From the NCBI GenBank assembly GCA_951406725.2, contig OX597816.1, forward strand, positions 78,058,001 to 78,122,000: 64,000 nucleotides of DNA, given 5' to 3'. The notes under the pieces are model-generated. The model saw only the letters and a program-made list of their open reading frames with translations, did not search any database and was not told where the DNA came from. The stretch is from Octopus vulgaris. Lineage: Eukaryota. Position 1 is the stretch's first letter, and the number at the start of each line of letters is the position of its first letter. The position numbers and the translations under genes were made by a program. This document shows, piece by piece, positions 1,616 to 43,007 of this stretch.

Positions 1616-1888
1616 CAATTGCAGCGTGGAAGGTGTTTTTAAGCCATTTAAGAAACACACAAAATCCGTTAGATTCACTTCAACATTTAAATTTAATTTG
1701 TCAAAATATTTTCGTTGCTTTGAGGCCGCGACCTGTTCACTGACACAAATTAAATTTAAATGTTGAAGTGAATCTAACGGATTTTGTGTGTCTCTTAAAT
1801 GGCTTATAAACACCTTCCACGCGGCAATTGGTTTCGTTCCAGCACACGATCTCAGATCAGGTCACTTGCTACGCAAGTACATCTCCGT
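1616..1888 (-). mobile_element. Short hairpin element in (TA)n, probably PLE-derived and non-autonomous
   Basis: ~88-bp inverted arms 1616-1703 and 1741-1829, (TA)n on both sides, hammerhead motif in the loop. Confidence 0.65.
1699..1745 (-). ncRNA. Minimal type-I hammerhead ribozyme motif, G3-C8 core variant
   Basis: Minus strand reads UGUCA GUGAACA G GUCGC-ggccucaaa-GCAAC GAAA AUAU UU UGACA: stem I, core, stem II, GAAA, palindromic AAUAUU, UH. Confidence 0.6.
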
Positions 1889-1929
1889 ATATATATATAT
1901 ATATATATATATATATATATATATATATA

Positions 1930-2234
1930 CAGTAACGTTTTCCCCACTATAACATGGGTGCTCTATAAAGAACTATGTTACTACATTTTAACCCCAAGAA
2001 AACGTCTTTTCCTGCTGGTTAACAACACACACCCTGTGTCACGTATATTGTAAGAGAGCGAATCACTCTCCCTCAGGCTTGGCAAGACCAGTAGATCATA
2101 GTTTCTGGATCTTTACCGGATACAGGTTGTGTGTCGTTAACCAGCTGAAAAAGACGTTTTCCTGAGGTTGAAATGTAATAATGTAGTTCTTTATAGAACA
2201 GCCATTCTATAGTGGCTTTAAAAAAATATTACTG
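1930..2234. mobile_element. Tc1/mariner-type MITE
   Basis: Termini CAGTAA...TTACTG, ~110-bp imperfect inverted arms, left end abuts (TA)n. Confidence 0.7.
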
Positions 2235-2460
2235 TCTAGTATTGTTACTATTTATATCTCTTTGAGAGATTTTAAAACTAGCTACTTTGTTCGTGTATAT
2301 ACATCCATATATATATATATATATATATATATATATATATATATATATATATATATATAATATATATATATGTATATATATATATATATATATATATATA
2401 TATATATATACCCCAAAATCTTGAACCAACAGACCCCGCCAAAACCTTGGGCTACCAGGT

Positions 2461-2528
2461 TTTGGTATCTGACGATACCCATAAGGCTAAACTCTTTATT
2501 GGTGGGAAACTTAAGGTAATCCCATAAA
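2461..2528 (+). ncRNA. Degenerate hammerhead-like motif in a ~140-bp element between (TA)n tracts
   Basis: CTGACGA (2469), imperfect stem II, GAAA (2506), palindromic CTTAAG, GTA, imperfect stem I. Confidence 0.4.
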
Positions 2529-40700: not shown

Positions 40701-42382
40701 CCTTTCACCAACTACTTAACAGAGAGTACTGAATGCATTCTGCATTTTATCATGGCATCAGCACTTGAGAGATTGTTATATCCTTAACAAAATAAGGTAC
40801 TTGACTTCACTAGACTGCCAACTACTTTGTAGAGTGTACCAGGTGCATTATATTGTGACACCAATACTAGTGAAGTTACCTTCTGAGTTTTAAGATTAAA
40901 GAGTCCTCACTTCTTTATGCTGTATCTGTTTACTCAATGCATTGTAACGAATGGGAGAAATGGCCGCATACTGACAAGAATCTAAACTATAAGGGTCAAA
41001 GGAACAAGATAATAAGGTTGATGGTAACTTCAAAGTTTCATTGTGGACTGGATTAATCAGATGAAACCATAATTCCAAGACAACCATTCCCATATATCTG
41101 CATGTGATTGTATGGTTAAGAAGTCTGCTTCTCAACCACAACATATTGGGTTAAGTCTCACTGCATGTCACTCTGGGCTTCTTTCACCTTGGGTTAACCA
41201 AAGCTCTGCAAGTGCATTTGGTAGATAGAAACTAAAAGAAGCCTAGTGTGTGTGTCTTGATATCGTATGATAGTTGCAAATGAATGTCACCATCATGTAA
41301 GCAATATTCTTCATTTCCAATCTTCTATGAAAACATATTTAACCAAGAGGAAATATTAACTTACTTGGAAACAGGTGATGGTTAGTAACAGAAAGAGCAC
41401 ATGGCTATAGAAAAACCTGTCATATTTGAGCAAGGAAATGTGAATGTTAATATGATGATAATACCTCCAAATTCTACATACATATGTACAACTAAGCTCT
41501 TAGTTTTGATATTTGTATATTAATACAATAGCATGTTCCCATTTATCTTTTGTGTAATGCTAAGGGAAGTAACTCAAATAAAATATATAAACAGTCATCA
41601 GTTATACTTGTAGTGGCAGCAGAGATGCCAGCAGTGATATTGGTGTTGATATTAGTGAATGAGAAAAAGAGATAGACAGACCAAGTGATGAAAAGAGACA
41701 CACACACACACACACACACACACAATTATTAAGTAAGAAAATGGAGAGATTTAATGGATATAATTTAATTTATCTATTAATTAATATTGCCTACAATTGT
41801 TTCAATTTTCACTCAATACAAATTACAAATATATAAAATAAAATAAGTTTGCATTTTGAAGATTTAGAGCAAAATATCACTAGGGTGAAAAGACATTAAG
41901 GAAGCTACATGTTGATTGGTTGAAATACTCTAATAGACTATGTAGTGATAGTTGTGTGTGTGTGTGTGTGTGTGTTAGTTAATAATCTTATTTAAATAAT
42001 AAAGTATATAAAAATATAAATATAAAACTAAGTAAAAGTAAATAATGAATATTAATAAAGAAAATAAAAATAGTCAAATTTGAAGTATATAAAAATAAAA
42101 TGATAAAAAATAAAAAGTAATAATATAGTAAAAATAAATACTAAAATAACTGAAATAAAATGAAAATAATATAAAATAAAAATATAAGTAGATAAGATAA
42201 AAAAATTAAAAAATAAGAAATAAAATAAAAATTTAAATAAAACCGTTATAAATATGGATGTCTATTGTCTATGTTAATTTGTGAGAGTGTGTGTACTGTC
42301 TAAGTTGATTTGTGTGTGTGTGTGCGTATTCATGTTAGTGTATATATATATATATATATATATATATATATATATATATATA

Positions 42383-42760
42383 TGGAGGCGCAATGGCCCA
42401 GTGGTTAGGGCAGCGGACTCGCGGTCGTAGGATCGCGGTTTCAATTCCCAGACCAAGCGTTGTGAGTGTTTATTGAGCGAAAACACCTAAAGCTCCACAA
42501 GGCTCCGGCAGGGATGGTGGTGATCCCTGCTGTACTCTTTCACCACAACTTTCTCTCACTCTTACTTCCTGTTTCTGTTGTACCTGTATTTCAAAGGGCC
42601 GGCCTTGTCACTCTCTGTGTCACGCTGAATATCCCCAAGAACTACGTTAAGGGTACACATGTCTGTGGAGTGCTCAGCCACTTACACATTAATTTCACGA
42701 GCAGGCTGTTCCGTTGATCGGATCAACCGGAACCCTCGTTGTCGTAACCAACGGAGTGCT
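42383..42760 (+). mobile_element. tRNA-derived SINE, young CpG-rich copy
   Basis: A-box TGGCCCAGTGG, B-box-like GGTTTCAATTCC; central domain repeated at 7922; follows (TA)n. Confidence 0.8.
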
Positions 42761-42918
42761 TCTCTCTCTCTATATATATATATATAGATTCAGTAAAATT
42801 TAGATTCAGTTGAATATGGTACTTAAGTTAAAAGTACCAGAATTTAGTATAGTATTATCCATATAATTCAAAATGGGGTGATTATAATCAAAATAAGCAA
42901 CAAGGATATCCAGAGGTA

Positions 42919-43007
42919 ATGCAGTATGATCGTTTCATGCGAGTCCATTTAATTGAACAATGCAAATATTACATCAATTTAAAATGTAGAGCAATCTTCA
43001 GCTGCAT
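42919..43007 (-). ncRNA. Type-I hammerhead motif with canonical core and long stem-II insert, in small element 42790-43030
   Basis: Minus strand: AUGCAG CUGAAGA U UGC...GCA U GAAA CGAUCA UA CUGCAU; the sister copy at 2783-2801 has the intact palindrome ACGAUCGU. Confidence 0.65.

What the first reader, a model, noticed from the sequence alone, without database searches (positions are those of the whole stretch)
1699..43007. An ecosystem of (TA)n-embedded mini-elements with hammerheads covarying at core positions 3/8
Seen: about nine sequence-unrelated elements share the order stem I, NUGANNA, stem II, GAAA, short palindrome, UH, stem I. Cores are C3-G8 (2469, 6451, 42919-43007), U3-A8 (16977, 25235, probably ~26350 and ~30660), G3-C8 (1699-1745) and U3-G8 (12831). 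Nearly all sit in (TA)n or (GATA)n tracts, and several show the inverted duplication seen in the autonomous PLEs. Inference: diverse non-autonomous ribozyme retroelements mobilised in trans by microsatellite-targeting PLEs, with selection maintaining the 3-8 pair.
Basis: partly seen in the sequence, partly recalled or inferred. Interest (0 to 1): 0.72.

Follow-up and report, generated by a model that had tools for sequence, protein, structure and literature searches.

The report
Variant-core hammerheads in Penelope element ends
Several unrelated jumping-gene families in this animal genome carry a small hammerhead RNA motif whose key base pair has changed from family to family yet stays paired, which suggests the RNA likely still cuts itself; most of the 'mini-elements' are cut-short tails of protein-coding Penelope-type elements, a known arrangement, and cutting is untested.

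Summary
The motifs are real minimal type I hammerheads. Seven of nine named sites are well-formed members of multicopy families; 26354 is a decayed copy of a U3-A8 family and 30661 is unresolved. In 1 Mb of random genome a descriptor with free positions 3/8 gave 23 hits against 2.6 per shuffle; 20 of 23 were Watson-Crick against 7 of 26. The 'non-autonomous ecosystem' reading is mostly wrong: 16977 and 25235 are pseudo-LTRs of ORF-bearing Penelope-like elements, 2469 and 43001 are truncated tails of Hydra-like ones, and the G3-C8 family runs further upstream in 504+ copies. Only the 480-nt U3.G8 unit at 12831 is clearly a protein-less retrozyme; its older relatives have C3-G8. Inserted copies decay neutrally, so the constraint acts on master elements. 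(TA)n linkage is real but neither universal nor specific. PLE hammerheads, U3-A8 covariation and PLE-derived retrozymes are published; natural G3-C8 and a fixed U3.G8 wobble were not found in the papers searched (one key paper was unavailable). The scan had already noted G3-C8 and similar retrozymes elsewhere in this genome.

The parts
1699..1745 (-). Family A minimal type I hammerhead, G3 (1740)-C8 (1735), stem II GUCGC/GCAAC, palindromic helix III AAUAUU, U17
1616..1887 (.). Family A insertion: minus-strand copy ending at the +124 3' end plus an inverted arm (1745-1887), between (TA)n tracts
2464..2523 (+). Family B hammerhead, C3 (2469)-G8; 5'-truncated 3' end of a Hydra-like PLE (endonuclease remnants upstream in longer copies)
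2614..2851 (.). Family E 3' half with inverted duplication; lacks the 5' core strand
6447..6480 (+). Family C hammerhead, C3 (6451)-G8 with C4 instead of U4; element about 6375-6586 in (TA)n; parent element not found
11224..11263 (+).
12433..13127 (.). Family D insertion: ORF-less 480-nt circularly permuted unit, plus arm ending at +295 and inverted arm; hammerheads with U3.G8 at 12831(+) and 12568(-)
13250..17217 (+). PLE P1 (frameshifted RT + C-terminal GIY-YIG, CX4CxxC linker) with pseudo-LTR hammerhead U3 (16977)-A8 and inverted copy at 13448(-)
18886..25362 (+). PLE P2 (RT + GIY-YIG, one frameshift here; intact 753-codon frames elsewhere) with pseudo-LTR hammerheads U3-A8 at 25235(+), 20639(+), 19060(-)
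26318..26357 (-). Family F, old; family core U3-A8, window copy decayed at 16.1; upstream of (GATA)n
30626..30667 (-). Family G, old and rare; hammerhead-like, 3/8 state unresolved, stem I unpaired in the window copy
42919..43007 (-). Family E hammerhead, C3 (43001)-G8 with long branched stem II; 5'-truncated tail of a Hydra-like PLE whose endonuclease lies about 2.3 kb upstream in long copies

Best explanation
These are minimal type I hammerhead motifs at the 3' ends of several Penelope-like element (PLE) families, most of them cut-short or solo ends of protein-coding elements and one a protein-less 480-nt retrozyme, and selection on the copying master elements likely keeps the 3-8 pair because the RNA would still need to self-cleave. 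Shown: the motifs, their excess over chance, complementary 3/8 letters per family, ORF or endonuclease remnants upstream of P1, P2, B and E, two fixed 3' ends, variable 5' ends, inverted 5' arms, and neutral decay of inserted copies. Inferred: a PLE protein nicks AT-rich DNA, starts reverse transcription at two internal sites downstream of the hammerhead and often stops early, leaving 150-300-nt ends in (TA)n; family D borrows such a protein in trans from a circular or multimeric RNA; helix III forms between two copies through its palindrome; the core moved from C-G through U.G to U-A, and separately to G-C.
For: Descriptor excess and complementarity. De novo clustering of 416 hits in 1.70 Mb: 21 multi-locus clusters vs 0 among 81 hits in reversed DNA; 17 clearly Watson-Crick (13 C-G, 3 U-A, 1 G-C), 2 two-member ties that include a C-G copy, 1 U.G, 1 A-G. 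Private changes hit core and non-core positions alike (12 of 1559 vs 171 of 16302 cells, p 0.36), whereas alleles shared by 3+ copies occur in 0 of 44 core vs 35 of 451 other columns (p 0.06). P2 has 150 scored matches at 95-100% identity, many in 753-codon frames. B and E remnants carry the CxCX5C, CxxC and CxH motifs described for Hydra PLEs and match each other at E 5e-9. D: 22 of 23 loci have an arm ending at +192-198 or +293-295, direct runs up to 2.7 units, longest stop-free frame 82 codons; relatives at 88, 78 and 75% identity have C3-G8. Published mechanism and rescue by the C3G/G8C double change (PMC11167929).
Against: No cleavage was measured. Families share ancestry: counting all U-A families as one event leaves 2 Watson-Crick outcomes in 4 non-C-G cases (p 0.18). 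The shared-allele test is borderline (p 0.06) and copies were picked by similarity to the motif. The youngest elements carry sub-optimal cores (U3.G8 plus a C.A mismatch or extra bases at stem II in D; C4 in family C), and hammerhead cleavage was dispensable for insertion in vitro. One multi-locus cluster is A3-G8 (inside the D unit, weak stem I; I treat it as a false positive). B and E remnants score in no Pfam family. No ORF was reached for A, C, H, F or G; the one A pair tested was a local duplication. Free-energy folds recover the hammerhead stems only for some sites.
Confidence: 0.75

Rival explanations
1. One reading: most sites are independent non-autonomous ribozyme retroelements with their own short transcripts, copied in trans by microsatellite-targeting PLEs.
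For: Family D fits fully. A has 5' ends at -7 to -30 in all 50 sampled copies; C and H are short with no ORF found. Other retrozymes derive from PLE ends (10.64898/2026.07.22.740005).
Against: P1, P2, B, E are parts of coding elements; A extends upstream in 504-521 exact matches, some as inverted pairs 2.4-4.9 kb apart; the coding family P1 itself yields mostly short solo ends.
Confidence: 0.15
2. The 3-8 pair is kept for RNA folding or protein recognition, or is simply inherited, and self-cleavage is not what is selected.
For: Cleavage not needed for insertion in vitro and no RNA ends at the cut site in Anolis; low activity of minimal PLE hammerheads; 8 of 9 Xenopus dimers did not cleave; copies read through the cut site; young families with C4 or U3.G8.
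Against: Changes C-G to U-A and to G-C each need two substitutions and restore a pair that matters for catalysis; single-change outcomes are rare among families.
Confidence: 0.25
3. The motifs are chance matches in AT-rich, palindrome-rich repeats.
For: None of 143 Rfam matches at E up to 10 is a hammerhead family; loose descriptors give about 15 hits per shuffled Mb; site G and the A-G cluster may be such cases.
Against: About nine-fold excess over shuffles, 0 repeated families in reversed DNA, complementarity at positions left free.
Confidence: 0.02

Closest known systems
Minimal type I hammerheads in pseudo-LTRs of metazoan PLEs (Cervera and de la Pena 2014, PMC4209133; read parts 1-3 of 4 and searched one supplement file, another was not searched)
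   Same: Short stem I, extra base after A9, palindromic minimal helix III, many unrelated families per genome, mostly solo copies attributed to truncated PLEs, inverted pairs 100-700 bp apart, a U3-A8 covariant (about 1,300 hits in S. mansoni).
   Different: G3-C8, fixed U3.G8 and C4 cores are not mentioned in what I read; no cephalopod data.
Metazoan non-LTR retrozymes (Cervera and de la Pena 2020, PMC7229834, passages; Li, Clavereau and Pollet 2026, 10.64898/2026.07.22.740005, parts 1 and 3 of 5)
   Same: Family D: ORF-less tandem unit with one type I hammerhead; PLEs proposed as the mobiliser.
   Different: 480 nt (reported RNAs about 170-400 nt), U3.G8 core with an extra A before G12, two fixed 3' ends and inverted arms at nearly every insertion; circular RNA not shown.
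Poseidon PLE of Anolis (Frangieh et al. 2024, PMC11167929; parts 1-2 of 4)
   Same: Two internal reverse-transcription starts giving a 'tail', AT-rich targets, uncleaved template; C3G/G8C partly rescues cleavage.
   Different: Tails here are 40-100 nt; the swap is natural and fixed in family A.
Neptune/Nematis-type and Hydra PLE clades (Craig et al. 2021, PMC8557442; passages and section 11)
   Same: P1/P2 have a CX4CxxC linker; B/E have CxCX5C, CxxC and CxH motifs; (TA)n targeting and canonical hammerheads reported.
   Different: No tree was built; E has a 2.3-kb non-coding tail and B a low-complexity insert inside the endonuclease.
Natural hammerhead core variants (Perreault et al. 2011, PMC3088659; section 8 and passages)
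   Same: Natural U3-A8 covariation; U4C tolerated in a viroid in vivo.
   Different: No G3-C8 or U3.G8 natural family named in what I read.

Membership tests
Minimal type I hammerhead | Core N3-U4-G5-A6-N7-N8-A9 ... G12-A13-A14-A15.1 ... U16.1-H17 in type I order | tested here: met
   A, B, D, E, H, P1, P2; C has C4; window copy F lacks U16.1
Minimal type I hammerhead | Paired positions 3 and 8 | tested here: met
   20 of 23 hits vs 7 of 26 in shuffles; D is a wobble
Minimal type I hammerhead | Stems I and II of 3-4+ pairs and palindromic helix III | tested here: met
   B and D have extra or mismatched bases at the base of stem II
Minimal type I hammerhead | Match to a curated Rfam hammerhead model | tested here: not met
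   0 hammerhead families among 143 matches at E up to 10
Minimal type I hammerhead | Self-cleavage 3' of position 17 | not testable with these tools
   needs an in vitro assay
Autonomous EN+ PLE (P1, P2) | Single ORF with RT and C-terminal GIY-YIG | tested here: met
   Pfam RVT_1 and GIY-YIG, weak scores; 753-codon frames
Autonomous EN+ PLE (P1, P2) | Pseudo-LTRs, optional tail, inverted 5' copy | tested here: met
Hydra-clade PLE (B, E) | CxCX5C linker, CxxC and CxH around E and N, C-terminal endonuclease | tested here: met
   motifs read from translations of decayed copies against the description; first C of E's linker decayed
Hydra-clade PLE (B, E) | Placement in the RT tree; DKT and RWK motifs | not tested
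   no intact RT fetched
Non-LTR retrozyme (D) | No coding capacity; head-to-tail units each with a type I hammerhead; dispersed | tested here: met
Non-LTR retrozyme (D) | Abundant circular RNA | not testable with these tools
   only contigs of runs not on record as RNA were offered
Non-LTR retrozyme (A, C, H) | Self-contained unit with no coding parent, tandem repeats | tested here: inconclusive
   no head-to-tail unit in sampled copies; A extends upstream; parent not reached

The most novel reading that the evidence does not exclude
One genome preserves a full natural path for a ribozyme's tertiary base pair: C3-G8 ancestors, a wobble U3.G8 intermediate caught in an actively spreading retrozyme, U3-A8 end states in active PLEs, and a fully swapped G3-C8 family fixed across related species. 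That shows selection for self-cleavage during PLE transposition in vivo although it is dispensable in vitro, and means standard descriptors miss many thousands of animal hammerheads.
Probability: 0.45. Interest if true: 0.6.

Novelty: new variant of a known kind. Interest (0 to 1): 0.42.

Why it matters
Why PLEs carry hammerheads is an open question: activity in vitro is low and not required for insertion. Compensatory change at 3/8 across families, with neutral decay in dead copies, is sequence evidence that the active fold is selected in the elements that copy themselves, and it supplies matched natural constructs (C-G, U.G, U-A, G-C, with and without C4) for a direct test. In practice, hammerhead searches fixed on CUGANGA miss families A, C, D, H, P1 and P2. 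The overall system is known, so the gain is incremental.

Tried and rejected
Rfam scan: no hammerhead family. Pfam on B and E endonuclease remnants: nothing; protein search gave one low-information hit named from Octopus bimaculoides for B and none for E. tblastn with P1/P2 proteins found no contiguous ORF beside A, C, D, E or G copies within 1.5 kb. A PLE next to an E copy (L347) is a separate insertion across a (TA)n tract. A direct pair of A copies 3.45 kb apart is a local duplication, not a pLTR-ORF-pLTR unit. The first copy-level conservation test was discarded because truncated flanks inflated the background; one search replaced it, dropping 8 rows under 80% identity (1 B, 5 C, 2 E). No RNA holder listed for family D; laid contigs cannot show expression, ends or circles. 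Lunse et al. 2017 (PMC5785218) and Przybilski and Hammann 2007 (PMC1986816) were not held, so their variant lists and 3-8 kinetics were not seen; either may already contain G3-C8 or U3.G8. Searches for a natural G3-C8 hammerhead: (only mutant studies found). Sequence look-ups in earlier scan notes for A and D gave nothing relevant. Clade assignment by tree and the parents of A, C and H remain open.

Full report
Setting. The window is G000:C3:78058001-78122000 of a 2.8-Gb animal genome; the only named protein relative returned came from an octopus. It is AT-rich and full of (TA)n tracts. It holds two RT + C-terminal GIY-YIG elements, P1 (13.2-17.2 kb) and P2 (18.9-25.4 kb), each with an inverted 5' copy.

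Are the motifs there? Yes at most sites. A descriptor with free positions 3 and 8 recovers 1740(-), 6451, 11228, 12831, 12568(-), 13448(-), 16977 and 43001(-), and 19060(-), 20639, 25235; 2469 is clear from its family. Genome searches gave 764, 1360, 710, 1150 and 2125 first-look candidates for A, B, C, D and E (only 40 scored each), 107 for F and 7 for G. Family cores are G3-C8 (A), C3-G8 (B, C, E), U3.G8 (D) and U3-A8 (P1, P2, H, F). Family C has C4 as its majority base, as do 4 of 21 clusters. The window copy of F lacks U16.1 and G is unresolved. Rfam reports no hammerhead, which I attribute to the minimal helix III (inference).

More than chance? In 100 random 10-kb stretches descriptor B found 23 hits against a mean of 2.6 in 10 local dinucleotide shuffles and 1 in reversed DNA; 20 of 23 were Watson-Crick at 3/8 against 7 of 26 in shuffles. 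The looser descriptor A gave 33 vs 7.3, and 24 of 33 vs 19 of 73. Because copies are not independent I clustered 416 relaxed hits from 1.70 Mb, which includes the loci chosen by family searches: 21 clusters span two or more loci, against 0 among 81 hits in the same DNA reversed. Seventeen are clearly Watson-Crick, two are two-member ties with one C-G copy, one is U.G (D) and one A-G (inside the D unit, weak stem I). Clusters can merge families, and P2 and F fall outside that descriptor. Most C-G families probably share the pair by descent; among 8 non-C-G cases 6 are Watson-Crick (p 0.001), but only 2 of 4 if all U-A families are one event (p 0.18).

Where does selection act? In families A-E private substitutions hit the core as often as other positions (12 of 1559 vs 171 of 16302 cells) and CpG core positions decay like other CpGs (13 of 251 vs 96 of 1509). 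Alleles shared by three or more copies occur in 0 of 44 non-CpG core columns vs 35 of 451 others (p 0.06). So inserted copies decay neutrally and the constraint lies in the lineages that produce copies. Contigs from four runs of three coded organisms cover family A with no listed difference at 3 or 8 at a 3% threshold (5 rows hidden), so the swap appears to predate those species. D's relatives at 88, 78 and 75% identity have C3-G8, which makes U3.G8 a derived wobble and a natural step towards U3-A8 (inference).

What are the elements? P1 and P2 hammerheads are pseudo-LTR motifs; P2 is young, with 150 scored matches at 95-100% identity and many 753-codon frames. Long B copies run upstream into a decayed endonuclease frame; E copies are progressively 5'-truncated and reach an endonuclease remnant about 2.3 kb upstream. 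Both show the cysteine and histidine motifs described for Hydra PLEs but score in no Pfam family. P1 shows that a coding family leaves mostly short ends: 6 of 7 incidental loci stop 39-217 nt upstream of the core. All 50 sampled A copies began 7-30 nt upstream of the core and ended near +122 or +182, which first suggested a 200-nt element; but loose ends led to 521 and 504 exact genomic matches that continue upstream through a pyrimidine tract and CAG (0 in the control), some as inverted pairs kilobases apart. A is therefore the end of something longer, and its sharp 5' edge may be a splice acceptor (inference; PLE introns at this place are described). D is different: every base of its insertions comes from one 480-nt unit without a frame over 82 codons, in direct runs up to 2.7 units, with arms ending at +194 or +295 in 22 of 23 loci. 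It has the PLE footprint and no protein, so copying in trans is the simplest reading. C and H are short and unassigned.

Microsatellites. 14 of 23 random hits have (TA)5+ within 250 nt downstream against 17% of random positions; by family 47 of 53 (C), 38 of 53 (E), 27 of 43 (B), 19 of 50 (A), 23 of 56 (D), 2 of 13 (H). One unrelated repeat is also (TA)n-linked (65 of 145), two others are not (8 of 43, 4 of 150). (TA)n targeting by PLEs with a zinc-finger-like linker is published.

Mechanism. By analogy with the Anolis element, the PLE protein would nick AT-rich DNA and start reverse transcription at two internal sites 3' of the hammerhead, giving the two fixed ends; early stops and strand switches give short ends and inverted arms (19 of 36 A loci, 14 of 32 B, 12 of 30 D, 12 of 38 E, 2 of 48 C). 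Copies read across the cut site, so templates are uncleaved, multimeric or circular. The palindromic helix III points to cleavage as a dimer. Cleavage itself is not shown.

Known versus new. PLE minimal hammerheads, solo truncated copies and U3-A8 are in PMC4209133; natural U3-A8 also in PMC3088659; PLE-derived retrozymes in PMC7229834 and 10.64898/2026.07.22.740005. Natural G3-C8 and a fixed U3.G8 were not found by searches, which returned only engineered swaps (PMC3884650, passages; PMC11167929), but Lunse et al. 2017 could not be read. PMC13282606 (passages) does not mention hammerheads. Earlier scan notes already describe G3-C8 families and PLE-footprinted retrozymes in this genome; I checked one and found the same family A. 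Verdict: real, largely explained, with a few unusual core variants worth an assay.

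Noticed in passing
window 16960-16976 (+), 43002-43025 (-), and upstream of family A: P1 and E have a pyrimidine-rich tract ending in CAG exactly at the base before position 3, and A has one 23 nt upstream; if these are splice acceptors, splicing would remove or replace the 5' strand of stem I and could switch the ribozyme.
   Followed up: partly
window 6451-6457 and clusters: C4 instead of U4 is the majority base in 4 of 21 multi-locus hammerhead clusters, including the most abundant one.
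   Followed up: partly
window 12831-12868; L186, L210, L326: Family D and its older relatives keep an extra A between stem II and G12.
   Followed up: partly
window 8240-8295 (-): Another hammerhead-like 3' end (C3-G8, 12-nt near-palindromic helix III), truncated at a (TA)n tract; single locus in my sample.
   Followed up: no
window 1440-1600: A repeat (86% copy in L227) with CUGAAGA and CUGAUGAAAC words in an order that does not fit a type I hammerhead; may be one of the re-wired motifs described in earlier scan notes.
   Followed up: no
window 1944-2215, 121-600, 54859-54967: Further inverted-repeat insertions of PLE-like shape without a recognised hammerhead.
   Followed up: partly
window 13131-13165: A 35-nt repeat between (TA)n tracts, 97-100% identical at 6 other loci; possibly a tail piece of P1.
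   Followed up: no
window 34812-37746: Decayed LTR-retrotransposon remnant (RT, RNase H, integrase domains in separate frames).
   Followed up: no
window 46705-49390: 621-codon RT frame with a PHD-like finger followed by a 62-bp tandem array.
   Followed up: no
L045, L048, L056 upstream of the family B hammerhead: The Hydra-like endonuclease of family B carries a long low-complexity insert between the two halves of its GIY-YIG motif.
   Followed up: partly
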